This document shows positions 11,903 through 25,283 of a stretch of DNA of 64,000 nt, piece after piece. The notes under the pieces are model-generated. The model did no database searches, was not told where the DNA came from, and worked only from the letters and a program-made list of their open reading frames with translations. Origin of the DNA: an uncultured Rhodanobacteraceae bacterium. Lineage in GTDB: Bacteria > Pseudomonadota > Gammaproteobacteria > Xanthomonadales > SZUA-5. The DNA is taken from contig CALEZI010000117.1 in assembly GCA_937928755.1 (NCBI GenBank), forward strand, positions 21,541 to 85,540, read 5' to 3'. The position numbers and the translations under genes were made by a program. The first letter of the stretch is position 1. Every line of letters begins with the position of its first letter.

Positions 11903-11928
11903 CGCGCCGCACATTGCTGCACACTTGG

Positions 11929-11957
11929 ACGGCCGGGGAAACCCGGCCGTTTTTTTA
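11929..11957 (+). terminator. rho-independent terminator of the EF-G paralogue
   Basis: ACGGCCGGG-GAAA-CCCGGCCGT stem-loop followed by TTTTTTT, 27 nt after the stop codon. Confidence 0.8.
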
Positions 11958-12094
11958 TGGATGGCGCGGCTCCGGCGCGTGGCGAGCGCATGCACACCCC
12001 GCGGAATGCGAAGGCACAAATCGCGCATTCATGATGTCCATGTACCGTTGAACCGGCAGCGCGCAACTCGATTGCGCAGGAGTCCCCAGCGTCA

Positions 12095-12541
12095 ATGATC
12101 AACACGACAGGCCGCACCACGCTGCGAATCATCGCCACGCTGTGGGCGCTGCCGAACTCGCTCGTGGGTCTGGTCTATGGCGGCGTTGGACTTTGCTGCG
12201 GAGCGCGACACGAATGGGATGCGAGTGGCCGCATCCTGCGCTTTGTCGACATGCCGTCCTGGCTGATGCCGACAGCGATATCGCTCGGACATGTGCAAGT
12301 GTATGCCGGTGGTCGTTGCAAGCGAGCGGATGGCAGCCCGGCAGCGAACCGTTTCGGCGTTCCCGTGATGATCGAAGAAACCCTGCATACACGGCAGGCA
12401 GAAATTCTCGGCCCGTTGTACCTGCCACTGCATGGGCTTTGCATGCTTGTCTCGATCATCGCCGGTGGCGGCACGCACGATCGCAACCTGCTCGAAATCG
12501 GCCCCGAGCGCGGGCGAGGGCCGTGGCCATGGCAGGCCTGA
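12095..12541 (+). CDS. hypothetical protein
   Basis: 148-aa ORF with a hydrophobic N-terminal segment. I recognise no family, and coding status is not certain. Confidence 0.35.
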   Translation: MINTTGRTTLRIIATLWALPNSLVGLVYGGVGLCCGARHEWDASGRILRFVDMPSWLMPTAISLGHVQVYAGGRCKRADGSPAANRFGVPVMIEETLHTRQAEILGPLYLPLHGLCMLVSIIAGGGTHDRNLLEIGPERGRGPWPWQA

Positions 12542-12682
12542 CGGTAGGTTCAGACTTGTCCGTGCGCCGTTGGTTGACGTGAACGTGTTCAGACAAGTCT
12601 GGGCCCAGGAGCACAGCCACCCCTTGCAGCGACACCGGGCGCTCACGTAGCGTCGCGCATTCCCGCGCAATCGTAACCATTC

Positions 12683-13765
12683 ATGTCCGAACTTCGCCTG
12701 CCTGCCGAACTGAAATACGCCGCCGAATTGGCAGCGCTGGAAGCGAATGATGATGCGGCCCGACCGCCCCAGTGGCGGCTCAGCCCGAGGGCGGTCGAGA
12801 CCTATGTGATGGGCAGCGCCAAGCCGGTCGGCGGGGTTGCCATCACACCCAAGTATTACGGCGACCGCTCGCTGGTGCAGGTGGCCATCGCGACGTTGGC
12901 ATCGGACCGTGCACTGATGCTCGCAGGCGAGCCGGGCACGGCGAAAAGCTGGTTGTCCGAGCATCTGTCGGCGGCAATCTGCGGCACATCGTTGCTGACC
13001 GTACAGGGCACTGCCGGCACCAGCGAGGATCATCTGAAGTATGGCTGGAACTACGCATTGCTGATCGCCGAGGGTCCGAGCGAACGCGCGCTGGTGCCGT
13101 CACCGGTGTTGCGCGCGATGCGCCAGGGCAAGATCGCACGGGTCGAGGAAATCACCCGCACCAGTCCGGAGGTGCAGGACGCCTTGATTTCGATCCTGTC
13201 CGAGAAGCAGATCGCGGTGCCGGAGTTGAATGAAACCGTCAGCGCACAGCGCGGATTCTCGATCATCGCCACCGCCAACACGCGCGACCGCGGCGTCAAC
13301 GAGATGAGTGCCGCACTGAAACGGCGTTTCAACTTTGTCACCGTGCCGGTGGTGGATGACCTCGACCAGGAGATCCGCATCGTGCAGCAGCGTGAAGCGC
13401 AGTTGCGCAGCGACTATCAGGTCGGCGCGCCGCCACCGGACGATTTGACCCGGCTGTTGGTCACGGTCTTCCAGGAGTTGCGTGGCGGTGCCACCAAGGA
13501 CGGCAAGACCAAGGTGCGCGCGCCGAACGGCGTGCTGTCGACGGCAGAAGCCATCAGCGTGCTGTTCAACAGCGGCATCCTGGCGCAAAGCTTCGGCGAC
13601 GGCACGGTCAACGGCGCCGATCTGGCGCGTGCACTCACCGGCGCGCTGGCCAAGGAAGGCGTCGAGGATCTGAAAGTGCTGCGCGAGTACCTGGAGACCG
13701 TCGCCAAAGCACGCAGCGGCGCCTGGAAGGGATTTTACGCGGCGGCCAAGCAGGCGCTCACTTGA
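12683..13765 (+). CDS. AAA+ ATPase of the AAA_5 / MoxR-CbbQ-NorQ-dynein-like class (YehL-like)
   Basis: Walker A LAGEPGTAKS, Walker B-like KIARVEEI, sensor-1 IIATAN, and arginine-rich SAALKRRF. Confidence 0.8.
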   Translation: MSELRLPAELKYAAELAALEANDDAARPPQWRLSPRAVETYVMGSAKPVGGVAITPKYYGDRSLVQVAIATLASDRALMLAGEPGTAKSWLSEHLSAAICGTSLLTVQGTAGTSEDHLKYGWNYALLIAEGPSERALVPSPVLRAMRQGKIARVEEITRTSPEVQDALISILSEKQIAVPELNETVSAQRGFSIIATANTRDRGVNEMSAALKRRFNFVTVPVVDDLDQEIRIVQQREAQLRSDYQVGAPPPDDLTRLLVTVFQELRGGATKDGKTKVRAPNGVLSTAEAISVLFNSGILAQSFGDGTVNGADLARALTGALAKEGVEDLKVLREYLETVAKARSGAWKGFYAAAKQALT

Positions 13766-13822
13766 ATCTCCTGGACTCGCCATTGCGAGATCCCATTCCC
13801 GACCTGGAAATGAACACAGGCC

Positions 13823-13972
13823 GTGAACCGCTCATCCTGAGCAGAGCGTCCGCTTCATCAGGACGCGGCGTCGAAGGACGAGCAAGAGCCTCCAATTCGC
13901 CTCATTCACGGCCTGCCCTTCGACGCCGCATCCCGGTGGAGCCGGGATGCTCTGCTCAGGGCGAACGGTGCC
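13823..13972. repeat. MITE-like nested inverted repeat (GTGAACCGCTCATCCTGAGCA ... TGCTCAGGGCGAACGG)
   Basis: The outer arms pair, and the inner GCGTCGAAGGACGAG pairs with CCTTCGACGCCGC. A second copy lies at 21321-21478. Confidence 0.7.
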
Positions 13973-14022
13973 TTGTGGATTTCAATGGCGGGTATGAAAC
14001 CAACCCGTAGACTCCCTGACCC

Positions 14023-16377
14023 ATGAACCTCACCGGCGTGCATCTGTTCCCGGTGCGACATCACTCGCCGCGGGCGGCGATGTGCCTGCGGGCGCTGCTC
14101 GATGAGGTACGTCCGTCGCTGGTGTTGATCGAGGGACCGAGCGATGCCGATGCGTTGATCCCGGTTCTCACCGCGGCAGATTCGATTCCGCCGATTGCGA
14201 TCCTGGCCTATCGCACCGATGGCACGCCGCAGAGCGCGATGTGGCCGTTCGCGCGCTATTCGCCGGAGTACCAGGCCTTGCTGTGGGCGCGTGACCACGG
14301 GGTGACGGCGCGCTTCATCGACTGGCCGTCGGGTGTGGCATTGGCAGCCGACCTGCCGTGCGCGCCGGTTGCGGCGAGCGTGCCCGACGAGACGCCCGAC
14401 GACGCCGTCGAAGAGTCTTTCGAAGCAGACCGTGTGGAGCCTGCAAGTGAAGAGGAAGCGCAGGCGCCCCCGGTCGATCGCCATCAGGCGCTCGCTGAAC
14501 GCTTCGACTTGCGTCATTTCGACGAATTCTGGGACGCTTACTTCGAGACGCCGATCTACCAGCCGGAGTCCTTCCGTACCGCGCTCAACGCGTTCGCCGA
14601 GTGGGTCGCACCAGCCGCAGGACGCGACACCGAGAGTGCGCTGCGTGATCGCATCATGGGCCAGGCGATCGCCGATGCGGTGAACGCCGGCACGCCTCCG
14701 GAGCGCATTGTTGCCGTGCTCGGCGCTGCGCACGTGGCGGCGCTGCTGCGCGGCGATCCAGCGCCCGACGCCAACGTACCGACCGCATTGCCGACAGCGC
14801 TGGCGGTGGTGCCCTACTCCTATCCACGCCTGTCCGAACAGAGTGGCTATGGCGCTGGCAACCGCGCGCCGTGGTACTACGAGCGCGTGTTCGAAGGCGC
14901 CAACGATTTTGCCCGCGCATCGTTGGTGGTGTTGATCGAGTTCGCCGGCAACATGCGCGCGCGCGGATTTTCGGTGTCGCTGGCGGATGTGATCGAGGCC
15001 TATCGACTGGCGCTGACGCTCGCTGATATTCGCGGTAAATCGGCACCCGGCGTCGACGAACTCGCCGAAGCCGCGCAAGCCACATTGACGCGCGGCGAAG
15101 CGGCGCCGATCCGCGAGTTCCTCAACCCGCTGATGATCGGACGGCGCATCGGCAAGCTCGGCGCCAGCGCCGGTCGCAACTCGCTGCAACTCGAGTTTGC
15201 GCAAGGGCTGGCCACCTACGGCCTGCCGCAGGTCGACGAGCCGGAAACCGTGTCGCTGCGCCTGGCCGACGCCACCCAGGCCGGCGCCAGCCTGTTCCTG
15301 CATCGCTTGCGCGTCGCCGACGTGCCCTACGCCAGCTACGCCGGTTCACAATCGGTGGTCACGCGCGGCCGCGCCAGCGACGACGAAGCTGGCGGCTACA
15401 GCGCATTGAGCCGTATGCGCGAGCATTGGGACGTGCAATGGACGCCGGCGACCGAAGTCGCGCTGGCCGAACGCGTGATCTACGGCGAGCGCTTTTCCGA
15501 GGTCTGCGAGCGACGTCTGAACGAGGCCATCGGCAGCGCCGCACACGCGGCCGATGCCACCCGCTTGCTGATCGACGCGGTGCTCACCGATGCCACCCAG
15601 GCCACCGCGCGTGCGCTGGACGCCACCGAACGTCTGAGCAGTCTGGACGACGACGTCGGCAGCCTGAGTCAGGCGGCGCGCACGCTGGCCGCGCTGAAGA
15701 GCTACGGCAGCTCGCGTCCGGCGCTGACGCAGATCGCCGGCACCATCGAACGTTTGCTGGTCGGCACCTTCACTCGCGCGATGCTGCGCCTCGCCATCGC
15801 CAGCCGCGGCGATGTCGAAGCGACGCAGGACGCGCGCGCAGCGATGCGCGTGCTCAACGAACTGGCGTTGTCGCAAGCGCTGCTCGACCGCGGCGCCTGG
15901 ATGCAGACGCTGACACAAATTGCCGGCGACGAAGCCCTGGAGGCAACCGCCAGCGGCGTTGCCGCGGCCTTGTTGTACCTGGCGCGCGAGTTGCACGAAA
16001 ACGATCTGCGCGGCCTGCTCGAGCGCCGCCTCGGCGATGTCATCCGCCCGGCCCGCGCGGCCGATTTTCTCGCCGGTTTTTTCGAGGTCAACGCGCTGGT
16101 ACTGCTGAAGAACCGCGAGATCGTCGCTGCGATGAGCGGCTTTCTGTCAGCGCTGCCCGCCGAGCACTTCCGCGATGCGCTACCCGCGCTGCGCCGAGCA
16201 TTTGCCTTGCTCGGCGCCAGCGAGCGGCGTTTCCTGCTGGAACATCTGGTCGGCCTGCACGGGCGCGCCGCGCCAGCGGTTGCCGCGCAGGTGCTCACCG
16301 CAGCAGACCAGCAGTCGCTGACCGATCTCTCGGCCACGCTGGGACAGGCGCTCGACGATCTGGATGATTTGCTGTGA
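14023..16377 (+). CDS. large DUF5682-like protein (YehM-like)
   Basis: 784 aa. I recognise the N-terminal VHLFPVRHHSPRAA...LIEGPSDA as DUF5682/YehM-type. The rest is helical with no other known domain. Confidence 0.6.
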   Translation: MNLTGVHLFPVRHHSPRAAMCLRALLDEVRPSLVLIEGPSDADALIPVLTAADSIPPIAILAYRTDGTPQSAMWPFARYSPEYQALLWARDHGVTARFIDWPSGVALAADLPCAPVAASVPDETPDDAVEESFEADRVEPASEEEAQAPPVDRHQALAERFDLRHFDEFWDAYFETPIYQPESFRTALNAFAEWVAPAAGRDTESALRDRIMGQAIADAVNAGTPPERIVAVLGAAHVAALLRGDPAPDANVPTALPTALAVVPYSYPRLSEQSGYGAGNRAPWYYERVFEGANDFARASLVVLIEFAGNMRARGFSVSLADVIEAYRLALTLADIRGKSAPGVDELAEAAQATLTRGEAAPIREFLNPLMIGRRIGKLGASAGRNSLQLEFAQGLATYGLPQVDEPETVSLRLADATQAGASLFLHRLRVADVPYASYAGSQSVVTRGRASDDEAGGYSALSRMREHWDVQWTPATEVALAERVIYGERFSEVCERRLNEAIGSAAHAADATRLLIDAVLTDATQATARALDATERLSSLDDDVGSLSQAARTLAALKSYGSSRPALTQIAGTIERLLVGTFTRAMLRLAIASRGDVEATQDARAAMRVLNELALSQALLDRGAWMQTLTQIAGDEALEATASGVAAALLYLARELHENDLRGLLERRLGDVIRPARAADFLAGFFEVNALVLLKNREIVAAMSGFLSALPAEHFRDALPALRRAFALLGASERRFLLEHLVGLHGRAAPAVAAQVLTAADQQSLTDLSATLGQALDDLDDLL

Positions 16378-16446
16378 GCCGGCGTATTCGCTTCCAACAC
16401 TGTGCTGATCTGCACCTCGAACTGAGCGGCAATCTCGGGGGACTGG

Positions 16447-16582
16447 TTTTTTGTCCGCAAAGGACGCAAAGAACGCAAAGGAGAGCAAAGGCGTCAGGGG
16501 TGCGGCGCATGAACATCGAGCCCCAAAACGCTAACTTTCGCATGGCTTTCTTTGCGTCCTTTGCGTTCTTTGCGAACAAAGA
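16447..16582. repeat. family-A k-mer-arm hairpin element
   Basis: GTCCGCAAAGGACGCAAAGAACGCAAAGGAGAGCAAAGG ... CTTTCTTTGCGTCCTTTGCGTTCTTTGCGAAC, with a loop of about 55 nt. Confidence 0.85.
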
Positions 16583-16608
16583 CTCCTGCCCAATGAACAG
16601 CGAGAAGC

Positions 16609-17802
16609 ATGATGGAGCCTGAAGCCGCCGCCGCCCTGCTGCGCTGGCGACTGGTGCTCGGGGCTGAGGCCGAGCGTGCTGAGCCCTTGCTGGGTTTGAG
16701 CGCGCTGTGCGCACAGTGCGGGCCCGCGGCGGAAGACGTGGTGGCGATGACCGAGGCCGAACTTGAAGCGCTCGATGACACGCTCGACTTTGTCTACGGC
16801 GCCGGTCGCAAGAGTGGGCTGACTGCCTATCTGCCGCGCTGGCTGGAGCGCGTGCGCGGCTTCTTCACCGCCGATGTCGTCGCGTTGGTGCAGAAGGATG
16901 CAATCGAGAAGAAGGGGCTGACGCGCCTGCTGTTCGAGCCGGAGACCCTGCCGTACCTGGAGAAGAATGCCGATCTGGTCGCCACGCTGCTGTCGGCGCG
17001 CGCGCTGGTGCCGGACGAGGCGAAGGAAATCGCGCGGGGTATCGTGCGCGAGGTGGTCGAGCAGTTGCGCAAGAAGCTGGAGACGGCGACGCGTACGGCG
17101 CTGATCGGCGCGGTCAAGCGCCATTCGCGCAGCCCGTTCAAGGTCGCCCGCAATCTCGACTGGAAGCGCACCGTGCAGCGCAATCTGCACACCTACGACC
17201 ACAACAAGCGTCGGTTGGTGCCGGAGTCTTTCCACTTCCTCGCCAACCGGCGCAAGCGCCACGAATGGGAGGTGGCGATCCTGGTCGACCAGTCCGGTTC
17301 GATGGCGGTCAGCGTGGTCTACAGCGCGATCATGGCGGCGATCTTCGCCTCCATCGACGTGCTGAAGACGCGTCTGGCCTACTTCAACCACGACACCGTG
17401 GTCGACATGACACCGCATCTGGTGGATCCGGTCGAAGTGCTGTTCAGCGCGCAACTTGGCGGCGCAGAGAACTACAACCTGGCGCTCGATTACGCCAAGG
17501 AACATTTCCTCGAGCGCCCGGACAAGACCTTGGTGCTGCTGATTACCGATCTCTATCACACGGCCGGCAACAACGAGCGTTTTCTGTTGCAGGTGCAGGA
17601 GATGATCGACTCCAAGGTCAAGTTCATGGTCCTGCTCAAGCTCTCAGACGCCGGCCAGCCCAGTTACGACCATGACCTGGCAAAGAAACTGGTCGCCCTG
17701 GGCGCCCATTGTTTCGGCGCCTCACCCAAACAACTGGTGGAGATCGTCGAACGCATCATGAAGAACCAGCCCTACGATCACCTGGCGCAAAACCCGAAAT
17801 GA
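16609..17802 (+). CDS. VWA (MIDAS) domain protein (YehP-like / CoxE-type)
   Basis: MIDAS-type motif EVAILVDQSGSM in the C-terminal half, followed by a Rossmann-like alternation. The N-terminal helical region is of the kind seen in AAA-partner VWA proteins. Confidence 0.75.
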   Translation: MMEPEAAAALLRWRLVLGAEAERAEPLLGLSALCAQCGPAAEDVVAMTEAELEALDDTLDFVYGAGRKSGLTAYLPRWLERVRGFFTADVVALVQKDAIEKKGLTRLLFEPETLPYLEKNADLVATLLSARALVPDEAKEIARGIVREVVEQLRKKLETATRTALIGAVKRHSRSPFKVARNLDWKRTVQRNLHTYDHNKRRLVPESFHFLANRRKRHEWEVAILVDQSGSMAVSVVYSAIMAAIFASIDVLKTRLAYFNHDTVVDMTPHLVDPVEVLFSAQLGGAENYNLALDYAKEHFLERPDKTLVLLITDLYHTAGNNERFLLQVQEMIDSKVKFMVLLKLSDAGQPSYDHDLAKKLVALGAHCFGASPKQLVEIVERIMKNQPYDHLAQNPK

Positions 17803-17824
17803 ATCCGGCGTCGTTCCGCCGCTT

Positions 17825-18293
17825 TTGTAGGCCGCTGTGCCGCGTAGCGGCTCACCGGCGCAGCGATCAAAGCGCCGGTGAGCGCGATGAAACTGCGCAC
17901 ACGCGGCCTACAAAAGAACTTGCGCGTACACCCGTGAACCACAGCTCTGGTAGACCGCTGTGCCGCGTAGCGGCTCACCGGCGCAGCGACCAAAGCGCCG
18001 GTGAGCGCGATGAAGCTGCGCACACGCGGCCTACAAGAGCACTTGCGCATACACCCGTGAACCACAGCTCTGGTAGACCGCTGTGCCGCGTAGCGGCTCA
18101 CCGGCGCAGCGACCAAAGCGCCGGTGAGCGCGATGAAGCTGCGCACACGCGGCCTACAAGAGCACTTGCGCATACACCCGTGAACCATCGCTCTGGTAGG
18201 CCGCTGTGCCGCGTAGCGGCTCACCGGCGCTTTCCCTGCGGTCGTGACCAAAGCGCCGGTGAGTGCGATGGAGCTGCGCACACGCGGCCTACA
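17825..18293. repeat. tandem array, about 3.8 copies of a 123-bp unit, each unit a nested hairpin
   Basis: Units start at 17825, 17948, 18071 and 18194. Units 2 and 3 differ at only about 2 positions. Each has an inner stem GCTCACCGGCGC/GCGCCGGTGAGC and outer GTAGGCCGC...GCGGCCTAC. Unit 4 carries a small indel. Confidence 0.9.
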
Positions 18294-18328
18294 TTCGAAT
18301 CCACGACTTTTCGACCAAGGTCAACCCG

Positions 18329-21226
18329 ATGTCTGACATCCCGAATCTCCCCGTGAACCAGCTCAAGCTGGTCGTCAGCGACGCCCAGGAACTGGCCAAG
18401 GGCATGTCGATTGCCGACAAGGGCGGCATCCGCCATCTGGCGCGACATGGCAACAAGCTTTACGCCGAGGCCGATGGCAGCGGCGCGACGCCGTACAAGG
18501 CGCAGATCGTGCACGACGACAAGGGCTGGCGCGGACGCTGTTCGTGCATGGCAGCGCGCAGTCGGCCCTTCTGCAAGCACGCCGCCGCGCTGCTGGTGGC
18601 CTGGTCGCGCGACCCGGCTGCGTTCGCGGTGGCCGAGGCGCCGCCGGCGGTCGCAACTGGCGAACCCGGCAGCGAGGCCAAACGCGCCAAGCCGAAGACC
18701 GGCAAGGTCGATGCCAATGCGCTGATGCGCCAGGGCATCGAGCAGACCCTGAACCTGGTGCGTGAACTGGCGTTGTCTGGCATCAGCACGATCAGCGCCG
18801 AGCGTGTGGCGCAGATCCGCGCGCTGGCAGAAACCCTGCGCGCCGAACGCCTGCGCCGGATCAGCGCGCGGCTGCTGGAACTGGCCGGGCTGCTGGATAC
18901 CGCGGTCGCCGACTTCGGCCTGCTCGACTCAGAAGCTTACGCCGCAGCACTCACCGACATCAGCCTGAGCGCGCGACGAGTCAGCCGTCATCTGGACGGC
19001 AGCGATCCGCTCAAACCGGAATACGTCGAGACGCTGATCGGCAAGACCTGGACCAAAAAAGACCGTGCCGACGCGGGCAAGCTCGATCTGATCGAGTACG
19101 CCTTCATCCACGAGATCACCGCCGACGACTACGTCATCCGCGAGAGTCGTTTCGTCGACCTGGCGAGCGGTACGCACTACAGCGAGAAACAGATCCTGCC
19201 GGCCTTCCTGGCCAAGCGCACGGCGCCCAAGCGCAGTTACGCCGGATTCGTGTTGCGCGGCGCCGGCGGCGGGCGTTATCCGGGTTTCGCGCCGCTGCGC
19301 CTCGACCTTGCCGAGGAGGGTCGATTCGATGAACCGGCGGCTGGCGATTTCGCGGGCGTGCTCGCCAATGCGCTGCCGAGCGTAAGCGCGGCGCTTGCGA
19401 CGCTCGCCGAGGCGCGCAAGGACGTGTTCGGCGCCGACAGCGTGCCGGTAGCCATTCGCCTGGATTCGCTGTACGCCGAGGGCGAGCGCCTGTTTGCCGT
19501 GGATGGCGGCGGCGACAGTCTGTTGATCGGCGGCGGTACGGACACCGTGATGGCGGTGACTCAGGCGCTGACCCAGGCCGAGCTCAAGTGCGTGCTCGGC
19601 GATCTGCTGCTGCTTGGCGCGATGCCATGCCTGAATCCCCTGGCGCTGGTCATCGAACGCGCCGGGCAGGTGGAATTGGTGCCGCTGCCTGTCGTCGACC
19701 AGACCACGTTGCTGCGTCAACGCAAGCTCAAGCGCGTGGGCAAGCGCGAACGCTGGATCGACAGCGCGCGTGAGTTGGGTGTGAACGCTGCGGCGCTCGT
19801 TCTCGGCGAAGTGCGCGAGGAACTTGCCGATACCTTGAGCGAAGGCCTGAGTGCCTTGGGAACACGACGCGCTGACGGCATGGTCAGTCGACTGCAGGGA
19901 TTGGGCCTGGCGAAGCCGGCGGCCTTGCTCGCCGAAGTCGCCCAGCGCGCAGATCCGGCAGAGAAACTCGACGACGTGCTGCGTCTGCTGCAGGTGCTCG
20001 GCATCGGCCTGACGCGCCTCGCGGCCAGCAAGAAGATCGACCGTTCCACACTGGTGCGCTCGCCGCTGCACCCGGCCATCGAGGTACTGCCGCCGGATGT
20101 GCATCTGGAGCCCGCCGATCTGCTGGCCGAACTGGGATCGAGCCGATTGCAGGGTCACAGTCGCGCAATCGCCATCGATCGCGCACTGGCCGCTTACGAC
20201 TCCGATACGCTCGCGCAACTGGCGCCAATGCTGTTCGCCGATGGCAGTGTCTGCGGGTTGGTCGTCGGGCGTTATGCGGCGCATCCGGAGCTGGCCATGG
20301 AACTGGCGCAACACGCGCTGAGCGCCAATCCGTCGCGCATTCGCCGCTGGACCGTCGAGTCCGCGTACGCCGACCAGGCGCGTGTTGCCAAGTTGACCGC
20401 GATCCTGCTGCTGCAAACACTGGCAACGCCAGCGGCGCGCGAGGTGTTGCGTCAGTTCCGCGATCAGCGACGTCCGGATCCCGCGCTCAAGGCGATGGCC
20501 AACTGGGCGCTCGAACCCGCGCATGCGCCGGAAGTCCGCCCGGAGTTGCTTGCCGGGCTGAATGCCCCCAACCGCGACGAGCGCATCCAGTACCTGCAAA
20601 AGATCGGCCAGAACGGCGCGATCGCCGCAATCCATTCGGTACGCCTGGTTGCCGCCAGCGACGCCAGCATGCCGGTGCGCTACAGCGCCTGGGCGACGCT
20701 GGCGCTGCTGCTCGACGTCGGTGTCGTGCCGATGCTGATCGGCAAGCTGCAGGACCGCCGCAATGACGACGACGCGGCGCGCGAAGCGGCGCACGCGCTC
20801 GGTCTGCTCGGCGACAGTCGCGCGATCGGTCCACTGCTGGCGGCATTCACCGAAGCTTTCAAGCCGGCGATCATCGCCGACAGCTTGCGCGCCATTGGGC
20901 CCGCTGTGCTGCCCGCACTGGTCGACCATGTCGATCGTCAGCCCGAACTGGCGGAGCGCAAGGTCGCGCAGGAACTGGTCATCGGTGTCGGCGCGGAGCT
21001 GTCGCGCGATTTTCTCGCCGCGCGGCTGCAGCAGGTACCGCAAGGTGACCTCGTGGCGTGCGCGCAGCGCTATCTCAAGCTGGCCAGCGGTGCGACCCAG
21101 TTGAAGCTTTGGGTTGCCGATGCCGTCGAGGCACGCGTGACGGCAGACGGCGCCGAAGTCCCGGCCGAGCTCAAGAAGATCCTGAGTCGGGCGCGTGTTC
21201 CACCCAAGGCACGTGCGAAAGCGTAG
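18329..21226 (+). CDS. SWIM zinc-finger protein with long helical body and C-terminal HEAT/PBS-lyase-like repeats (YehQ-like, extended)
   Basis: SWIM motif CSCMAARSRPFCKHAAALL. The C-terminal repeats include AAREAAHALGLLGDSRAIGPLL. I chose the ATG at 18329 because the track start (18263) lies inside the tandem repeat. Confidence 0.7.
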   Translation: MSDIPNLPVNQLKLVVSDAQELAKGMSIADKGGIRHLARHGNKLYAEADGSGATPYKAQIVHDDKGWRGRCSCMAARSRPFCKHAAALLVAWSRDPAAFAVAEAPPAVATGEPGSEAKRAKPKTGKVDANALMRQGIEQTLNLVRELALSGISTISAERVAQIRALAETLRAERLRRISARLLELAGLLDTAVADFGLLDSEAYAAALTDISLSARRVSRHLDGSDPLKPEYVETLIGKTWTKKDRADAGKLDLIEYAFIHEITADDYVIRESRFVDLASGTHYSEKQILPAFLAKRTAPKRSYAGFVLRGAGGGRYPGFAPLRLDLAEEGRFDEPAAGDFAGVLANALPSVSAALATLAEARKDVFGADSVPVAIRLDSLYAEGERLFAVDGGGDSLLIGGGTDTVMAVTQALTQAELKCVLGDLLLLGAMPCLNPLALVIERAGQVELVPLPVVDQTTLLRQRKLKRVGKRERWIDSARELGVNAAALVLGEVREELADTLSEGLSALGTRRADGMVSRLQGLGLAKPAALLAEVAQRADPAEKLDDVLRLLQVLGIGLTRLAASKKIDRSTLVRSPLHPAIEVLPPDVHLEPADLLAELGSSRLQGHSRAIAIDRALAAYDSDTLAQLAPMLFADGSVCGLVVGRYAAHPELAMELAQHALSANPSRIRRWTVESAYADQARVAKLTAILLLQTLATPAAREVLRQFRDQRRPDPALKAMANWALEPAHAPEVRPELLAGLNAPNRDERIQYLQKIGQNGAIAAIHSVRLVAASDASMPVRYSAWATLALLLDVGVVPMLIGKLQDRRNDDDAAREAAHALGLLGDSRAIGPLLAAFTEAFKPAIIADSLRAIGPAVLPALVDHVDRQPELAERKVAQELVIGVGAELSRDFLAARLQQVPQGDLVACAQRYLKLASGATQLKLWVADAVEARVTADGAEVPAELKKILSRARVPPKARAKA

Positions 21227-21320
21227 CAGTGCCCACTGGCCATCAACCGCCAAATCGTCATTGCGAATCAGCCTTGGCGATTGTGGCAAACGCTCCATCC
21301 GCGCAGCGCATCCAGCGACA

Positions 21321-21478
21321 TTGAACCCGCTCATCCTGAGCAAGGCATCCAACGCTCCATCAGGATGCGTCGTCGAAGGACGAGCAGGGCCTCCAGGACG
21401 TCGCACACCGATCGCCCCGCGGCACCCTTCGACGCCGCATCCCGATGAAGCCGGGATGCCCTGCTCAGGGTGAACGGC
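21321..21478. repeat. MITE-like nested inverted repeat, second copy of the 13823-13972 family
   Basis: TTGAACCCGCTCATCCTGAGCAAGGCATCC ... GGGATGCCCTGCTCAGGGTGAACGG, with the same inner GTCGAAGGACGAG/CTTCGACGCCGC pair. Confidence 0.7.
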
Positions 21479-21544
21479 TCACAAATTCAATAACTTACGA
21501 TATCGGCTCTTGGAGAGCTGAGCTTACTCGGCTGGGAGAGCGAC

Positions 21545-23170
21545 TCAAGTCCCCGGCTGCAAATACGCCACCGGCGCGAACAGCAGGCGTTCGCGACGAC
21601 GTGGGTCGAGCTCCACGCGGGTCTCGGTGTCGAAAATCATCGCCGGGCGTTGCGCGAGTTCGAACTGCGGCCACTGCGGTAATCCTCGGACGTTCGGATC
21701 GCCCGTGCGCGCAAATGCCAGCAGCGCATCGCTCATCCGGTCGGCGAGTGCCTGGGCGGAAACGTCACCGGCGGTGTACGGGCTTGCATCCACCGTGTTG
21801 AACAAGAGCGGGATGTCGACCATGTGCGGCGCGCCCCAGCGGCCGCCGTCGAGCGGTGACTGCCAGTGCACGTAATAGGTCCAGGTCGGCGCGCCCTGTT
21901 CGGCACGGCGTTCGGCTTCGATCAACATGCCGCGCCAGGAACGCGCCGCGGTGGTGATGGAAAAGAACAACTCGCTCGGTGAGGCCCGTGGATACCAGCG
22001 GCGATAATGCTCGACGATCGCTTCGGCGCTGAGTGGCCCCATGAACTGCGCGATGTGCTGCTTGAGCTTGTCCGGCAGGCCAATCCAATCGAGTTCAAAC
22101 GTGGTGGGATCGGCCACCCCGATCAGGCTGGTGGTCTCCTGCAGTGTGTTGCCGAGCACCATCGGGATGTGGCGGGACTGGGCCGGCGCGTCCGGAGAAA
22201 ACGGGTCGCGCGGCAGTGCCTTGCCATCGACGACTGGCGTCCAGACGCCGCCCTGCATGGCCTGCAGTACCTGCGTCAGCGGCATCGTTTCGATCTCTCG
22301 CACACGGTCAGGCGACAACTGCAGCGCCGCCAGCACCGCCTGCGCGGTCTCTCGGCCATGCGCCCGCGTGCGCCCGGTCACTTGCTGCCCGCTCATGGTC
22401 CAGACGCGGTGGAACAATCCTCTTGCCGCAGGCATGGCCATCAATGTTGCGCACTTGGCGCCGCCGCCGGACTGACCGAAAAGGGTCACCGACGCCGGAT
22501 CGCCACCAAACGTGGCGATGTTGTCGCGCACCCAGGTCAGGGCCAGCACCAGATCCAGCATGCCGGCATTGCCCGACTCGGCGTAGCGCTCGGCATCGAA
22601 ATCGGCCAGATACAGGAAACCGAAACCACCGATCCGGTGGTGCAGCGTCACTACCACGACATCGCCGCGTCGACTCAACGCTGCGCCGTCATACAGCGGC
22701 TCGCTGACGGCCCCATGGCTGTAACCGCCACCGTGGAAGTAGACCAGCACGGGGCGCTTTGGCGTATCCTCCAGTCCCGCCGTCCACACGTTGAGACGCA
22801 AGCAGTCTTCGCTGATCGTCGCCGGATCGATCGCTGAGGTCTGTGGGCACGCCGGTCCGTACTCGACGGCATCGCGGATTCCGGTCCACGGCGGCGCCGG
22901 CAGCGGCGCACGGAACCGACGGTTTGAGGTATCGGCGCCGTAGGGAATGCCCTTGAAGCTGTGGATGCCGTCCGATTCGACGCCGCGCAACAGTCCGCTT
23001 CTCGTTTCCACCAATACGCTGCCAGCTTCTTCCGTGTGCAGGAGCGCGCTTGCGCGCGATGGCCTTTGAAGGCCCTCGCTCGCAGGTGGCGAATCCTTCA
23101 TGGACTCCCGCTCGCTGCCGCAAGCCGCGAGCACCCATACCACCAGCAACAACGACCGTCGAGACCTCAC
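21545..23170 (-). CDS. type-B carboxylesterase/lipase family lipoprotein
   Basis: Nucleophile elbow FGQSGGG and oxyanion region YFHGGGY. Lipobox signal LLLVVWVLAAC. A GTGA overlap links it to the upstream gene. Confidence 0.85.
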   Translation of the reverse strand: MRSRRSLLLVVWVLAACGSERESMKDSPPASEGLQRPSRASALLHTEEAGSVLVETRSGLLRGVESDGIHSFKGIPYGADTSNRRFRAPLPAPPWTGIRDAVEYGPACPQTSAIDPATISEDCLRLNVWTAGLEDTPKRPVLVYFHGGGYSHGAVSEPLYDGAALSRRGDVVVVTLHHRIGGFGFLYLADFDAERYAESGNAGMLDLVLALTWVRDNIATFGGDPASVTLFGQSGGGAKCATLMAMPAARGLFHRVWTMSGQQVTGRTRAHGRETAQAVLAALQLSPDRVREIETMPLTQVLQAMQGGVWTPVVDGKALPRDPFSPDAPAQSRHIPMVLGNTLQETTSLIGVADPTTFELDWIGLPDKLKQHIAQFMGPLSAEAIVEHYRRWYPRASPSELFFSITTAARSWRGMLIEAERRAEQGAPTWTYYVHWQSPLDGGRWGAPHMVDIPLLFNTVDASPYTAGDVSAQALADRMSDALLAFARTGDPNVRGLPQWPQFELAQRPAMIFDTETRVELDPRRRERLLFAPVAYLQPGT

Positions 23171-24345
23171 GGCGCCGGCGCCGCGGCCTTTGGCGCCTGC
23201 GCGTACACGATCAGGATCGCCAGATCCTCACGACCCACTTGGCGCAGGCTGTGACTGGAACCATCGCGCGTCAGGATTGCCATCCCCGGTACCACCGCGT
23301 GCGCCTTGCCATCCAGCGTCAGCTCGCCGCGTCCGCTGAGCACGTAATAGACCTCATCCTTGCCATGCGCATGCAGACCAATCGACGCGCCCTGGTGCAA
23401 CACGCGCCGGCGCACTGCGAATCCGAAGCCCGGCGCGTCCTTGAAGAACGGCGACGCCACGGTGATGCCATCGCCTCCGTGGGGCGCGATCTGCACCTGC
23501 GCGATGCGCTCGGCGTGCTCGATCAAGGAGGGCAGCGGCTGGCCAGCGTGGCGCTGGCGCTGGTCGGCCGGCACGCCGCAATCCACGTCGCGCGTGGCAA
23601 TCGATGCCGGCAACAACTTCTGCGCGATCAGATCGCCGACCACCAGACAGGCGACAGCGATGGCGCCACGATGGTGAAAATGGGTGTCATCGGCGAGCCC
23701 GACGACCGGGTCATGCAAAAAGTAGGCTTTCGACGCTTCCGGGCCGAGCGCTTCGATCCAGTCCATGCTGCGCTGCGCCAGATCGATCAATGCCACCTTG
23801 TCCGCGGCGGCCACGTCGCGCACCGCCGCGGCGTATGCGCCGTGCGTGTCGACCGCACGGCCCTGTTCGTCAAAGGTTCCGCGCGCCACAGGCGTCAGCA
23901 GCACCGGCGTCGCTCCCGCAGCCCGTGCGGCACTGACGAATCGCCGCAGGCCAGCTGGAAAATCGACCGTGGCATCGGCGTAGCGCGCCGGATCCTCGGC
24001 CTTCTGATCGTTGTGGCCGAACTGAATCAGCAGCAGATCGCCGGCGCGCAGCTCCGCCATGGTGGTGTCGAAATGGCCGAGCGTCCGATAGTCGCGCGTG
24101 CTGCGCCCGGACACGGCACGATTGAGAATTTCGACGTCGTCGGTGACGAAACTGCCCAGCGCCTGACCCCAACCGGTACGCGGATAGCGCGCCTGCGGAT
24201 ACTCACTCGCCGTGGAATCGCCGACGATGACGATGCGCGGCGCGCCGTGGGCGTTGGCGGCGAGCGACAGACTCGCCACGACCAAGACGAGCGACCGACC
24301 CGATCGAAGCAAGCGCTGCAGTCTACCCATCGTCAGCGTTGGCAT
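23167..24345 (-). CDS. SGNH/GDSL esterase (rhamnogalacturonan-acetylesterase-like) fused to a C-terminal cupin domain
   Basis: Signal peptide, block I IVIVGDSTASEY, block III FGHNDQK. The C-terminal cupin motif is GLHAHGKDEVYYVLSGRG...PGMAILTRDGSSHSL. Confidence 0.7.
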   Translation of the reverse strand: MPTLTMGRLQRLLRSGRSLVLVVASLSLAANAHGAPRIVIVGDSTASEYPQARYPRTGWGQALGSFVTDDVEILNRAVSGRSTRDYRTLGHFDTTMAELRAGDLLLIQFGHNDQKAEDPARYADATVDFPAGLRRFVSAARAAGATPVLLTPVARGTFDEQGRAVDTHGAYAAAVRDVAAADKVALIDLAQRSMDWIEALGPEASKAYFLHDPVVGLADDTHFHHRGAIAVACLVVGDLIAQKLLPASIATRDVDCGVPADQRQRHAGQPLPSLIEHAERIAQVQIAPHGGDGITVASPFFKDAPGFGFAVRRRVLHQGASIGLHAHGKDEVYYVLSGRGELTLDGKAHAVVPGMAILTRDGSSHSLRQVGREDLAILIVYAQAPKAAAPAP

Positions 24346-25275: not shown

Positions 25276-25283
25276 CGCCCGCT

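What the first reader, a model, noticed from the sequence alone, without database searches (positions are those of the whole stretch)
12683..21226. Complete AAA_5 ATPase / DUF5682-like / VWA / SWIM+HEAT four-gene cluster (yehLMPQ-type) of unknown function
Four co-directional genes make up the cluster:
- A 360-aa AAA+ protein with Walker A GEPGTAKS, Walker B-like ARVEEI, sensor ATAN and RRF. This places it in the dynein/MoxR/CbbQ/NorQ-like AAA_5 class.
- A 784-aa protein whose N-terminus (HLFPVRHHSPRAA..LIEGPSDA) I recognise as DUF5682/YehM-type.
- A 397-aa protein with a MIDAS VWA motif (ILVDQSGSM).
- A 965-aa protein with a SWIM zinc finger (CSCMAARSRPFCKHAAALL) and C-terminal HEAT/PBS-lyase repeats.

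Gene order and domain content equal the E. coli K-12 yehL-yehM-yehP-yehQ cluster as I remember it. As far as I know, that cluster has no assigned function.

AAA_5+VWA pairs elsewhere act as ATP-driven remodelling or metal-centre maturation machines (CbbQ/CbbO, NorQ/NorD, CoxD/CoxE, BchI/BchD, RavA/ViaA, eukaryotic midasin). MoxR-VWA modules have also been proposed as NTP-dependent conflict systems. No obvious client enzyme is adjacent here, and the SWIM protein is much longer than I recall for YehQ. This is my best candidate for an undescribed system in the window.
Basis: partly seen in the sequence, partly recalled or inferred. Interest (0 to 1): 0.78.

Follow-up and report, generated by a model that had tools for sequence, protein, structure and literature searches.

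The report
Conserved MoxR–VWA–DUF5682–SWIM operon, function unknown
Four intact, co-directional genes encode an ATP-driven motor, its metal-dependent adaptor, a probable hydrolase and a zinc-finger scaffold; relatives of this cluster occur in many bacteria, including almost every E. coli, and nobody has worked out what it does.

Summary
Four intact + strand genes lie at 12683-21226:
- AAA_5 ATPase (Pfam E 2e-40)
- DUF5682 (2e-125)
- VWA_CoxE with an intact MIDAS motif (1e-35)
- a 965-aa protein with an invariant SWIM CxC..CxH motif and C-terminal HEAT repeats

The first three are homologues of E. coli YehL, YehM and YehP (47%, 26% and 31% identity). The fourth is not a YehQ orthologue and shares only the N-terminal SWIM module. 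It is a fusion of the stand-alone 460-aa SWIM protein of Rhizobium/Deinococcus-type operons (hhalign 98.5%) with a HEAT module that sits where DUF5691 sits in those operons.

The order AAA-DUF5682-VWA-SWIM/HEAT recurs in 48 of 63 related genome loci. Flanks are unrelated, and no fifth gene or client enzyme is conserved.

Added here:
- DUF5682 has an N-terminal alpha/beta domain with a family-invariant H/E/H/R/D set and two GxxH motifs.
- That domain is probably TraB/Tiki-like.

My best reading is a self-contained MoxR-VWA remodelling machine that controls this hydrolase. The cellular role is still unknown. I found no functional study. The cluster family is already catalogued (YehL subfamily, DUF5682, DUF5691), so this is a variant of a known, uncharacterised kind.

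The parts
11927..11962 (+). Terminator-like hairpin plus T-run after the upstream EF-G paralogue. It separates that gene from the cluster.
   Evidence: 11-pair stem with 8 GC pairs, followed by TTTTTTATGG. EF-G domains are at 9773-11902.
12683..13765 (+). MoxR-class AAA+ ATPase of the YehL subfamily (AAA_5), 360 aa.
   Evidence: Pfam AAA_5 E 2.3e-40. 47% identity to E. coli YehL, E 2e-97. Catalytic motifs are invariant in 85 homologues. The best solved relatives are midasin AAA modules, E 5e-22, against NorQ at 3e-5.
13766..14022 (.). 257-nt spacer holding a hairpin-forming repeat element (13851-13968). A second copy lies at 21353-21477.
   Evidence: families D8 and D10 (91-92% identity). RNA fold -66.9 kcal/mol, z -4.15. 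In related loci this junction is mostly an overlap of up to 46 nt or a gap of 16 nt or less; the next-largest gap is 55 nt (some large negative values come from over-extended ORF starts).
14023..16377 (+). DUF5682 protein (YehM-like), 784 aa. It has an N-terminal alpha/beta domain (about 1-290) with an acidic disordered insert at 115-149, an alpha-helical solenoid (296-778), and an invariant C-terminal tail DDLDDLL.
   Evidence: Pfam E 2.1e-125. AF2 pLDDT 84.5. R12, H13, E37, E82, D100, E175, R208, M212, G234 and H237 are invariant in 62 members at 24-36% identity. The top BFVD fold hit is a TraB family protein, probability 0.98. Tail.
16378..16608 (.). 231-nt spacer holding a palindromic element whose arms are 9-nt tandem repeats (CGCAAAGGA / TCCTTTGCG). 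It is one of five copies in the window.
   Evidence: families D1, D3 and D4 (copies at 8295-8433, 16447-16592, 28560-28677, 38945-39090, 53941-54079). Fold -68 kcal/mol, z -6.07.
16609..17802 (+). CoxE-type VWA protein (YehP-like), 397 aa, with an intact MIDAS site and a conserved N-terminal LLRWRLxLG helical region.
   Evidence: Pfam VWA_CoxE E 9.5e-36. 31% identity to YehP, E 7e-59. DQSGS and D314 present in 73 of 73 homologues.
17816..18293 (.). Tandem array of a 123-nt hairpin-forming unit (3.3-4 copies) in the 526-nt spacer before gene 4.
   Evidence: TRF: period 123, 3.3 copies, 96% matches. families D2 and D5. Unit fold -62.6 kcal/mol, z -5.02.
18329..21226 (+). SWIM / beta-rich / HEAT scaffold protein, 965 aa. 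Layout: SWIM module 1-105, disordered 108-126, helical 129-237, beta-rich 252-452, helical 458-564, HEAT repeats 595-965.
   Evidence: AF2 pLDDT 87.5. The SWIM motif is invariant. Residues 7-437 are homologous to stand-alone 460-aa SWIM proteins, hhalign 98.5%, E 1.5e-15. HEAT. Whole-chain Foldseek hit to ZSWIM8, E 2.2e-3; HIN/OB-like hits for the beta-rich part, probability 0.97-0.98.

Best explanation
The four genes encode one self-contained, ATP-driven protein-remodelling machine of the MoxR-VWA type. Its working partners are encoded in the operon itself rather than next to it.

Proposed mechanism, with each step marked shown or inferred:
1. The YehL-class AAA+ protein forms a catalytically competent ring ATPase. 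The motifs are shown; the ring is inferred from the family.
2. The CoxE-type VWA protein uses its intact MIDAS metal site to grip an acidic peptide of a partner. The motifs are shown; the grip is inferred from integrin, midasin and NorD precedent.
3. One candidate ligand is the invariant acidic-hydrophobic C-terminal tail (DDLDDLL-COOH) of the DUF5682 protein. Another is its acidic disordered loop. This is inferred and untested.
4. DUF5682 is the catalytic component. It is an alpha/beta domain with a family-invariant H13/E37/H237 (+R208, D100, E82, E175) constellation and two GxxH motifs, and it is probably a TraB/Tiki-type hydrolase. The domain is mounted on an alpha-solenoid. The conservation is shown; the fold assignment is probable; the activity is inferred.
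5. The SWIM/beta-rich/HEAT protein is the scaffold or target-recognition subunit, built like SWIM substrate receptors such as ZSWIM8. This is inferred.
6. ATP hydrolysis would switch the hydrolase between a latent and an active or target-loaded state.

The substrate and the physiological role are not known.
For: - The operon is conserved. 48 of 63 related genome loci with enough flanking sequence carry all four genes in the same order. The VWA and SWIM/HEAT junctions mostly overlap by 4-8 nt and the AAA-DUF5682 junction is an overlap or a short gap. Public gene calls show the same arrangement.
- The module is self-contained. No flank family is shared by more than 6 of 19 clades.
- The same five modules (SWIM, helical repeat/DUF5691, AAA_5, DUF5682, VWA) recur in Rhizobium, Deinococcus and Hymenobacter in a different order. 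They are split or fused there, which argues for physical interaction.
- The ATPase and MIDAS motifs are invariant.
- DUF5682's invariant residues lie mostly in the N-terminal domain, across 62 members at 24-36% identity.
- Three weak, independent pointers to TraB/Tiki:
  - Pfam TraB_PrgY_gumN hits in 13 of 31 N-terminal domains and ChaN hits in 10 of 31, best E 6.9e-4.
  - A colinear hhalign alignment to E. coli YbaP that pairs E37 with E67 and H237 with H252, E 0.003.
  - The top-ranked BFVD fold hit is a Marseillevirus TraB family protein, probability 0.98, TM 0.40.
- The general MoxR-VWA mechanism is as reviewed in PMC7159879.
Against: - No interaction was tested.
- The TraB/Tiki assignment is below significance in every single test. 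hhalign probability is 3-11%. Only 1-2 of 62 diverse full-length members hit the Pfam models. Foldseek against PDB gave no Tiki-like hit in the top 50.
- Most of the 13 of 31 Pfam hits come from related myxobacterial sequences, so they are not independent.
- The acidic tail is missing in E. coli YehM and in the Rhizobium, Deinococcus and Hymenobacter proteins, so it cannot be the universal MIDAS ligand.
- Some Sorangium, Byssovorax and Minicystis loci keep only AAA+DUF5682 (with or without VWA) locally.
- An unlinked client cannot be excluded.
Confidence: 0.5

Rival explanations
1. It is a maturation or cofactor-insertion chaperone for an unlinked client enzyme. This is the classical MoxR-VWA role, as in NorQ/NorD, CoxD/CoxE, CbbQ/CbbO, and the AAA+/VWA subunits of class I chelatases (CobS/CobT, BchI/BchD). 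In this reading DUF5682 acts as the large cofactor- or metal-handling subunit.
For: - The VWA domain is of the CoxE type. The ATPase is distantly related to NorQ.
- The AAA_5 + VWA + large third subunit layout copies class I chelatases (established knowledge).
- Weak Pfam hits place the DUF5682 N-domain near ChaN, a haem-binding Tiki-superfamily protein.
- The invariant His/Glu/Asp set could equally be a metal site.
- The E. coli operon is near-core: 5210 of 5426 complete genomes, chromosomal, single copy. That fits a cellular rather than an accessory role.
- A molybdopterin oxidoreductase gene lies 4.3 kb downstream in the window.
Against: - No client gene is conserved next to the operon in 19 clades.
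- The Mo-enzyme gene is on the other strand, behind two unrelated hydrolase genes. It is not seen next to the related loci inspected.
- DUF5682 has no detectable similarity to CobN/BchH or to any solved structure.
- The role of the SWIM/HEAT subunit is unexplained.
Confidence: 0.22
2. It is an NTP-dependent conflict (anti-phage or anti-invader) system. The SWIM/HEAT protein senses an invader, MoxR-VWA acts as the threshold switch, and the DUF5682 hydrolase is the effector.
For: - The module is self-contained, with unrelated flanks and a patchy distribution. Members occur in Myxococcota, Lysobacterales, Verrucomicrobia, Planctomycetota, Leptospirales, one Thermoplasmata MAG and megaplasmids.
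- The sensor-like SWIM/helical component is the variable part: YehQ, SWIM+DUF5691 or SWIM+HEAT.
- The PADLOC candidate PDC-S62 matches the SWIM module, E 5.9e-9.
- E. coli yehL and yehM are de-repressed in hns/stpA mutants (PMC3686432).
- There are occasional neighbours of the defence or mobile-element kind:
  - a PIN/PhdYeFM pair
  - a PDDEXK nuclease and a recombinase
  - an Eco57I-like methylase
- MoxR-vWA ternary conflict systems are a described class (PMC7159879).
Against: - Three of the four proteins hit no PADLOC model at a meaningful level.
- The system is not one of the four ternary classes of PMC7159879, and that paper mentions neither SWIM nor YehL.
- Near-core, single-copy, chromosomal status in E. 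coli is atypical for defence systems.
- There is no swapping of effector domains, and sequences are strongly conserved (46-80% identity across orders).
- No genuine phage carries it. The only record in the phage collection is an unverified scaffold of bacterial genes.
Confidence: 0.18
3. In this particular genome the operon is decaying. Three repeat-element insertions have uncoupled the genes, so the cluster may no longer be expressed as a unit.
For: - All three junctions carry hairpin-forming repeat elements.
- The spacers measure 257, 231 and 460-526 nt. At junctions 1 and 3 they are the longest among 50 complete loci. At junction 2 only the Thermoplasmata locus L080 (1608 nt) is longer.
Against: - All four reading frames are full length with every catalytic motif intact.
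- A bioreactor-sludge metagenome contig (L006) carries an identical DUF5682 protein and the same three-gene layout as far as it extends.
- REP-type elements inside operons are common and usually compatible with expression (established knowledge).
Confidence: 0.07

Closest known systems
E. coli K-12 yehL-yehM-yehP-yehQ operon (uncharacterised)
   Same: - Same gene order: AAA_5, DUF5682, VWA, SWIM protein.
- YehL 47%, YehM 26% and YehP 31% identity.
- The same invariant motifs are present, including RHHSP, E37 and GxxH in YehM.
- The SWIM module sits at the same N-terminal position.
   Different: - YehQ (614 aa) has no detectable similarity beyond about 72 SWIM-module residues and lacks HEAT repeats.
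- YehM lacks the DDLDDLL tail.
- E. coli has WGR and DUF4132 genes (yehF, yehH, yehI) upstream. These are absent here and in about 85 related loci.
SWIM - DUF5691 - AAA - (small ORF) - DUF5682 - VWA operons of Rhizobium, Deinococcus and Hymenobacter (annotated, uncharacterised)
   Same: - Same set of modules.
- The window protein's residues 7-437 are homologous to their 460-aa SWIM protein (98.5%, E 1.5e-15).
- Hymenobacter also fuses SWIM to a helical-repeat module.
   Different: - Gene order differs: the SWIM-type gene(s) come first there and last here.
- The C-terminal helical module here scores as HEAT, not DUF5691. The comparison reaches only E 0.065.
- No small ORF lies between the AAA and DUF5682 genes here. 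The 82-aa ORF in that spacer is repeat-derived and unrelated.
CoxD/CoxE, NorQ/NorD, CbbQ/CbbO and RavA/ViaA (characterised MoxR-VWA pairs)
   Same: - AAA+ of the MoxR clade paired with a MIDAS-containing VWA protein in one operon.
- The VWA domain is of the CoxE Pfam type.
   Different: - Those pairs sit beside, or act on, a known client (CODH, cNOR, Rubisco, Nuo/Frd/LdcI).
- Here there is no adjacent client, and there are two extra obligatory partners (DUF5682 and SWIM/HEAT).
- NorQ matches only at E 3e-5.
Midasin (Rea1/Mdn1)
   Same: - Its AAA_5 modules are the closest solved relatives of the ATPase, E 5e-22.
- Midasin also couples AAA_5 modules to a MIDAS domain through acidic and helical linkers (established knowledge).
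   Different: - Midasin is a single 4,700-4,900-residue eukaryotic polypeptide with six AAA modules, and it acts on pre-60S ribosomes.
- Here the parts are separate bacterial proteins.
- No ribosome link was found. The adjacent EF-G paralogue is not conserved in other loci.
MoxR-vWA ternary conflict systems (VMAP, iSTAND, FtsH and beta-propeller classes; PMC7159879)
   Same: - A MoxR + vWA core plus obligatory extra component(s).
- A CoxE-like N-terminal helical region on the vWA protein.
- Frequent in Myxococcota.
   Different: - The third and fourth components are DUF5682 and SWIM/HEAT, not VMAP, iSTAND, FtsH or a propeller.
- There are no variable effector domains on the vWA protein.
- The bpMoxR Pfam model matches only at E 0.0085, below its cut-off.
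TraB/PrgY/GumN - Tiki - ChaN - erythromycin esterase superfamily
   Same: For the DUF5682 N-terminal domain:
- two widely spaced GxxH motifs, a Glu after strand 2 and an R-[DE]-x-x-M motif, in the same order as in E. coli YbaP
- recurrent weak Pfam hits
- a TraB family protein as the top BFVD fold hit
   Different: - No test reaches significance.
- DUF5682 carries a 35-aa acidic insert and a 490-aa helical solenoid that those families lack.
ZSWIM8 (SWIM substrate receptor of a cullin-RING ligase)
   Same: SWIM module followed by a long alpha-solenoid. Whole-chain Foldseek hit 9rwz_M, E 2.2e-3.
   Different: - Probability is only 0.60 and TM only 0.10.
- No cullin or ubiquitin machinery is present.
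- ZSWIM8 is eukaryotic.
- The resemblance may be architectural only.

Membership tests
MoxR AAA+ ATPases, YehL subfamily (Pfam AAA_5) | AAA_5 domain above the Pfam gathering score. | tested here: met
   138.2 bits against a cut-off of 22, E 2.3e-40.
MoxR AAA+ ATPases, YehL subfamily (Pfam AAA_5) | Closest characterised or named relative is E. coli YehL, over the full length. | tested here: met
   47% identity over 356 aligned positions, E 2e-97. NorQ scores only 3e-5.
MoxR AAA+ ATPases, YehL subfamily (Pfam AAA_5) | Intact Walker A, Walker B, sensor 1 and arginine finger. | tested here: met
   GEPGTAKS, R-x-E-E-[IV]-T-R (Glu-Glu where Asp-Glu is usual), TAN-T-R and KRRF are conserved in 84-85 of 85 homologues. 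ATPase activity itself was not tested.
MoxR AAA+ ATPases, YehL subfamily (Pfam AAA_5) | Genomic pairing with a VWA protein. | tested here: met
   A VWA_CoxE gene lies in the same operon here, in 72 of about 85 related loci, and in the public gene calls.
VWA_CoxE / MIDAS-containing VWA proteins | VWA_CoxE domain above the gathering score. | tested here: met
   123.7 bits against a cut-off of 26.4.
VWA_CoxE / MIDAS-containing VWA proteins | MIDAS motif DxSxS ... T ... D. | tested here: inconclusive
   DQSGS is present in 73 of 73 and D314 in 73 of 73. The middle Thr position (LGGG-T) is Thr in 56 of 73 but Glu in the window protein and 16 others. Metal binding was not tested.
DUF5682 (Pfam PF18934) | Full-length match above the gathering score. 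| tested here: met
   420.2 bits against a cut-off of 26; residues 22-763 cover model positions 1-713 of 727.
SWIM zinc finger (Pfam PF04434) | Match above the Pfam gathering score (19.6 bits). | tested here: not met
   11.5-14.1 bits, E 0.035-0.22.
SWIM zinc finger (Pfam PF04434) | CxC-x(n)-CxH zinc-ligand signature, conserved among homologues. | tested here: met
   C71, C73, C82 and H84 are invariant in 42 sequences. The module aligns in register with SWIM-positive proteins of related operons: 97-98.5%, with Pfam SWIM E 8.5e-6 in the Rhizobium protein.
HEAT / HEAT_PBS repeats | Repeat match and an alpha-solenoid fold. | tested here: inconclusive
   HEAT_2 scores 20.1 bits, below the 27.7 cut-off. 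However, PDB alphaRep chains match at E 4e-14, many homologues carry precomputed PF13646/PF03130, and the AF2 model shows paired helices over 595-965.
yehLMPQ orthologous cluster | All four proteins are orthologous to YehL, YehM, YehP and YehQ. | tested here: not met
   Three of four are homologous. The fourth shows no BLASTP similarity and only a SWIM-module alignment at E 0.067.
TraB/Tiki/ChaN superfamily (for the DUF5682 N-domain) | Significant sequence or profile match to a member family. | tested here: inconclusive
   Pfam TraB best E 6.9e-4 in 13 of 31 related N-domains, but only 1 of 62 diverse full-length members. hhalign E 0.003-0.015, probability 3-11%.
TraB/Tiki/ChaN superfamily (for the DUF5682 N-domain) | Two GxxH motifs plus a catalytic Glu, in the family order. 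| tested here: met
   The family consensus is G-I-R-H13 and G234-A-W-H237 with E37. All are invariant in 62 members and colinear with YbaP. That these motifs define the superfamily rests on my knowledge of the literature and was not checked here.
TraB/Tiki/ChaN superfamily (for the DUF5682 N-domain) | Fold similarity. | tested here: inconclusive
Known or candidate anti-phage systems (PADLOC-DB 2.0) | Component proteins match the models of one system. | tested here: not met
   The only hits are mad8 at E 5e-4 for the ATPase and PDC-S62 at E 5.9e-9, restricted to the SWIM module. DUF5682 and VWA have no hit.
MoxR-vWA ternary conflict systems (PMC7159879) | The third component is VMAP, iSTAND, FtsH or a vWA-fused beta-propeller. 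| tested here: not met
   Pfam shows none of these. bpMoxR scores 15.6 bits, below the cut-off of 27. The paper does not mention SWIM or YehL.

The most novel reading that the evidence does not exclude
The YehL-class cluster is a so-far unrecognised type of bacterial ATP-dependent machine. A midasin-like AAA+ motor and a MIDAS adaptor deliver or activate a TraB/Tiki-type hydrolase. The targets are chosen by a SWIM/OB-like/HEAT receptor. It would be a prokaryotic substrate-selective processing system, architecturally parallel to SWIM-receptor pathways (ZSWIM8) and to midasin in eukaryotes. Its cellular role (quality control, RNP or nucleoid remodelling, or immunity) would be distinct from all characterised MoxR-VWA pairs.
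Probability: 0.25. Interest if true: 0.8.

Novelty: new variant of a known kind. Interest (0 to 1): 0.5.

Why it matters
MoxR-VWA pairs are among the most widespread uncharacterised chaperone-like machines in bacteria. Of the seven MoxR subfamilies, I found no functional study of the YehL subfamily in the held literature. Its operon is present in about 96% of complete E. coli genomes, and DUF5682 spans about 2,800 sequence clusters.

This analysis does four things:
- It defines the full module set: AAA_5, VWA, DUF5682, a SWIM-beta module and a helical-repeat module.
- It shows that the module set is self-contained, with no conserved neighbouring client.
- It points to a probable catalytic centre (H13, E37, H237, R208) that can be mutated.
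- It identifies a candidate docking tail.

Together these turn 'unknown function' into a short list of bench experiments. E. coli offers a tractable model for them.

Tried and rejected
**YehQ orthology of gene 4**
- Rejected.

**Linkage to DUF4132/MolR, WGR or YehK**
- No homologue within about 10 kb of the cluster in about 85 loci.
- YehI shows no profile similarity to the HEAT or DUF5691 modules.

**A conserved fifth gene or client**
- Flank clustering over 19 clades found nothing shared by more than 6 clades.

**Solved-structure relatives of DUF5682 by sequence**
- None found.

**Whole-chain Foldseek of DUF5682 against PDB**
- Only non-significant helical-repeat hits.

**Making the TraB/Tiki link significant**
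- I built a YbaP alignment for this. The search returned only close enterobacterial orthologues, so the profile was shallow.
- hhalign stayed at 3-11% probability.

**Phage carriage**
- The single 'phage' record is an unverified scaffold of bacterial genes.

**Small ORFs in the spacers (13762-14010, 16374-16622)**
- No Pfam hit for the 13762-14010 ORF; the 16374-16622 ORF was not scanned against Pfam.
- Neither ORF is similar to the small genes of the Deinococcus or Hymenobacter operons.
- They lie over repeat elements, so I treat them as non-coding.

**Rfam**
- No RNA family in 11500-22000.

**Co-variation of the acidic tail with presence of the HEAT protein**
- Uninformative. Sorangium proteins keep the tail although the partner gene is not adjacent.

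**Literature**
- No functional study of yehL, yehM, yehP or yehQ, of DUF5682, or of DUF5691 was found.

Full report
**1. Observation**

The window has about 65% G+C, so long spurious ORFs are common.

- 12683-13765: AAA_5, E 2.3e-40.
- 14023-16377: DUF5682, E 2.1e-125, covering nearly the whole model.
- 16609-17802: VWA_CoxE, E 9.5e-36.
- 18263/18329-21226: only a sub-threshold HEAT_2 hit (E 8e-4) and a sub-threshold SWIM hit (E 0.035-0.22).

The SWIM call is still sound, for three reasons.

- C71-x-C73...C82-x-H84 is invariant in 42 homologues.
- The module aligns at 97-98.5% hhalign probability with the SWIM proteins of related operons.
- One of those related proteins passes Pfam SWIM.

HEAT repeats are confirmed by PDB alphaRep matches (E 4e-14) and by the AF2 model. 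The homologue alignment favours the ATG at 18329 as the start, giving 965 aa.

Rfam finds no RNA family in the region. A terminator-like hairpin after the upstream EF-G paralogue (11927-11962) sets the cluster apart from that gene.

**2. Relation to E. coli yehLMPQ**

I fetched the K-12 locus and compared proteins.

| Window protein | E. coli protein | Result |
|---|---|---|
| AAA_5 ATPase | YehL | 47% identity, E 2e-97 |
| DUF5682 | YehM | 26% identity, E 3e-26 |
| VWA | YehP | 31% identity, E 7e-59 |
| SWIM/HEAT | YehQ | no BLASTP similarity |

A profile comparison with YehQ aligns only the first ~72 residues around the SWIM motif (E 0.067). So three genes are homologues of their E. coli counterparts, probably orthologues. 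The fourth is a positional analogue that shares only the SWIM module.

**3. What the fourth protein is**

It belongs to a large family of ~960-aa proteins in Myxococcota, Lysobacterales, Verrucomicrobia and others.

The AF2 model (pLDDT 87.5) has this layout:

- SWIM module, 1-105
- disordered linker, 108-126
- helical bundle, 129-237
- beta-rich domain, 252-452
- helical region, 458-564
- HEAT solenoid, 595-965

Foldseek against PDB gives three kinds of hit:

- alphaRep, bilin-lyase and deoxyhypusine-hydroxylase HEAT hits
- HIN (tandem OB) hits for the beta-rich part (probability 0.97-0.98, E 0.03-0.05)
- a whole-chain hit to ZSWIM8 (E 2.2e-3, probability 0.60)

More distant DUF5682 operons on Rhizobium, Deinococcus and Hymenobacter replicons are annotated as SWIM (460 aa) - DUF5691 (470 aa) - AAA - small ORF - DUF5682 - VWA. 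In Hymenobacter the SWIM and DUF5691 parts are fused into one 1009-aa protein.

Residues 7-437 of the window family are homologous to those 460-aa SWIM proteins (hhalign 98.5%, E 1.5e-15, 390 columns). The C-terminal HEAT part resembles DUF5691 only weakly (E 0.065).

The window protein is therefore a fusion of the SWIM-beta module with a helical-repeat module that occupies the place of DUF5691.

**4. Conservation of the cluster**

A scan of one genome per species found 383 genomes with close DUF5682 relatives, and 80 loci were fetched. The nearest is a Lysobacterales MAG at 81% identity. A bioreactor-sludge contig carries an identical DUF5682.

- Of 63 loci with enough flanking DNA, 48 carry all four genes in the order AAA-DUF5682-VWA-SWIM/HEAT.
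- The exceptions are mainly Sorangium, Byssovorax and Minicystis loci that keep AAA+DUF5682, with or without VWA.
- Public gene calls show the same operon between completely different neighbours.
- Clustering flank ORFs over 19 sequence clades found no family in more than 6 clades.
- No YehQ, YehI (DUF4132), YehF (WGR) or YehK homologue occurs in any locus.

The module is self-contained, with no conserved client.

Family size and distribution:

- DUF5682 has 2805 clusters at 50% identity with E<=1e-3 (1802 at <=1e-10) among 1.84 billion representatives.
- In E. coli the operon is near-core. 5210 of 5426 complete genomes carry at least 80% of it, chromosomally and in single copy.
- In K-12, yehL and yehM are de-repressed in hns/stpA mutants (PMC3686432).
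- No genuine phage carries it.

**5. The enzymatic parts**

*ATPase.* Walker A, the R-x-E-E-I-T-R segment at the Walker B position, sensor 1 and the KRRF arginine segment are conserved in 84-85 of 85 homologues. Its best solved relatives are midasin AAA modules (E 5e-22), far ahead of NorQ (3e-5).

*VWA.* The MIDAS residues DQSGS and D314 are invariant. The middle Thr is Glu in this clade.

*DUF5682.* The AF2 model (pLDDT 84.5) shows three parts:

- an alpha/beta domain, ~1-290, with a disordered acidic insert at 115-149
- a long alpha-solenoid
- a disordered C-terminal tail

Across 62 members at only 24-36% identity, 17 of the 22 invariant residues lie in the N-domain. They include R12, H13, E37, S80-P81-E82, D100, W170, E175, R208, M212, G234 and H237. 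The family consensus motifs are G-I-R-H-H-G and G-A-W-H. That pattern is the signature of an active or metal-binding site.

It also reproduces, in order, the two GxxH motifs, the Glu and the R-[DE]-x-x-M motif that I know from the TraB/Tiki/ChaN/erythromycin-esterase superfamily. Tests of that link were individually weak but pointed the same way.

| Test | Result |
|---|---|
| Pfam on related N-domains | TraB_PrgY_gumN in 13 of 31 and ChaN in 10 of 31 (best E 6.9e-4) |
| Pfam on diverse full-length members | only 1-2 of 62 hit |
| hhalign against E. coli YbaP | E 0.003-0.015, probability 3-11%; colinear alignment pairs E37 with E67 and H237 with H252 |
| Foldseek against viral structure library | top of 202 hits is a Marseillevirus TraB family protein (probability 0.98, TM 0.40) |

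I rate the TraB/Tiki-like assignment at about 60-70%.

*C-terminal tail.* In this subfamily DUF5682 ends in an almost invariant [DE]DL[DN][DE]LL-COOH. Related acidic-hydrophobic tails (DFDFDDI and similar) occur in about a third of the wider family. Other members, including E. coli YehM and the Rhizobium type, end differently.

**6. Mechanism**

The established behaviour of MoxR-VWA pairs is this: the MIDAS site captures a peptide and the AAA+ ring remodels the bound protein (PMC7159879).

Applying that here, the most economical model is a four-protein machine.

- The ATPase and VWA proteins act on partners encoded in the same operon.
- DUF5682 is the catalytic subunit.
- The SWIM/beta/HEAT protein is the scaffold or target selector.
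- The acidic tail or loop of DUF5682 is a plausible MIDAS or HEAT-groove ligand.

Shown: gene linkage, motif integrity, and fission/fusion of modules. Inferred: everything about contacts, activity and substrate. Confidence is about 0.5.

Rivals:

- A classical maturation or chelatase-like chaperone for an unlinked client (0.22). Near-core status in E. coli and the CoxE/ChaN hints favour it. The lack of any linked client weakens it.
- A conflict system (0.18). Modularity, patchy distribution, H-NS silencing and the PDC-S62 SWIM hit favour it. PADLOC negatives, near-core status, the absence of effector swapping and the absence from phages weaken it.
- Local decay of the operon in this genome (0.07).

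**7. Novelty**

The cluster type is catalogued, as the YehL subfamily of MoxR (PMC3893208), as Pfam DUF5682 and DUF5691, and in PGAP names. I found no functional study.

The window copy is a member of a widespread subfamily whose SWIM component differs from YehQ. I therefore class it as a new variant of a known, uncharacterised kind.

What this analysis adds is the module map, the self-containment result, the probable hydrolase centre and the tail motif.

Interest is 0.5. It is a real open problem with a tractable E. coli model, but not a surprise to specialists, and the window itself adds no functional clue.

**8. Seen in passing**

In this genome all three gene junctions are filled by hairpin-forming repeat elements. 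In related loci the VWA and SWIM/HEAT junctions overlap by 4-8 nt and the AAA-DUF5682 junction is an overlap or a short gap. Details are in the list below.

Noticed in passing
window 13766-14022, 16378-16608, 17803-18328: All three gene junctions of the operon are occupied by repeat elements, giving spacers of 257, 231 and 526 nt. In related loci the same junctions are overlaps or short gaps (4-8 nt overlaps at junctions 2 and 3). The window's spacers are the longest of 50 complete loci at junctions 1 and 3. At junction 2 only the Thermoplasmata locus L080 (1608 nt) is longer. A sludge metagenome contig (L006) with an identical DUF5682 protein has the same gene spacing at the two junctions it covers.
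   Followed up: partly
window 8295-8433, 16447-16592, 28560-28677, 38945-39090, 53941-54079: Five copies of a palindromic element whose two arms are tandem 9-mers (CGCAAAGGA on one side, TCCTTTGCG on the other). The copy inside the operon folds at -68 kcal/mol (z -6.1). It looks like a REP/MITE-like family of this Lysobacterales-type genome.
   Followed up: partly
window 17816-18293: Tandem array of a 123-nt unit (3.3-4 copies, 96% identical). Each unit forms a long GC-rich hairpin (GGCTCACCGGCGC...GCGCCGGTGAGC), z -5.0.
   Followed up: partly
window 13851-13968 and 21353-21477: Two copies (91-92% identical) of a ~120-nt hairpin element. One lies between genes 1 and 2, the other just downstream of gene 4, so they bracket most of the cluster.
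   Followed up: no
window 5952-6015 and 24424-24487: Two copies (86% identical) of a 64-nt perfect-armed palindrome (TGTGGGAGCGACCTTG...CAAGGTCGCTCCCAC). This is another REP-like family.
   Followed up: no
window 9773-11902 (+): A 709-aa EF-G paralogue with all five EF-G domains lies immediately upstream, followed by a strong terminator. It is also adjacent in the sludge contig L006, but not in the Lysobacterales MAG or the other loci, so the linkage to the cluster is probably fortuitous.
   Followed up: partly
window 12095-12541 (+): A 148-aa ORF lies between the EF-G terminator and the ATPase gene. It was called as a gene on the public sludge contig but has no Pfam hit. It is not present upstream of the operon in the closest MAG.
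   Followed up: partly
window 21545-27915 (- strand): The downstream genes are unrelated to the cluster: a carboxylesterase (21545-23170), a GDSL lipase fused to a cupin domain (23167-24408), and a molybdopterin-cofactor-binding oxidoreductase subunit (25513-27915). The last is the only conceivable CoxD/E-type client nearby, but the linkage is not conserved.
   Followed up: partly
L055, L058, L061, L065, L067, L071, L073 (Sorangium); L046 (Minicystis); L062, L063: In Polyangiaceae the operon is reduced locally to AAA+DUF5682, or the VWA gene is displaced by ~3 kb of unrelated ORFs. The DUF5682 proteins still carry the DDLDELL tail. Whether the missing partners are encoded elsewhere in these 12-16 Mb genomes was not checked.
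   Followed up: partly
L080 (Thermoplasmata archaeon MAG, DASPYU010000008.1): An archaeal MAG contig carries AAA-DUF5682-VWA and a SWIM/HEAT-like ORF at 37% identity to the window DUF5682. This is either horizontal transfer into archaea or a binning artefact.
   Followed up: no
L091 (MT835988.1, 'Bacteriophage sp.', unverified): This record in the phage collection carries AAA_5-DUF5682-VWA next to MgsA/RarA, a polysaccharide deacetylase and DUF5716/DUF5717 genes. It has no recognisable phage gene and looks like a misassigned bacterial scaffold.
   Followed up: yes
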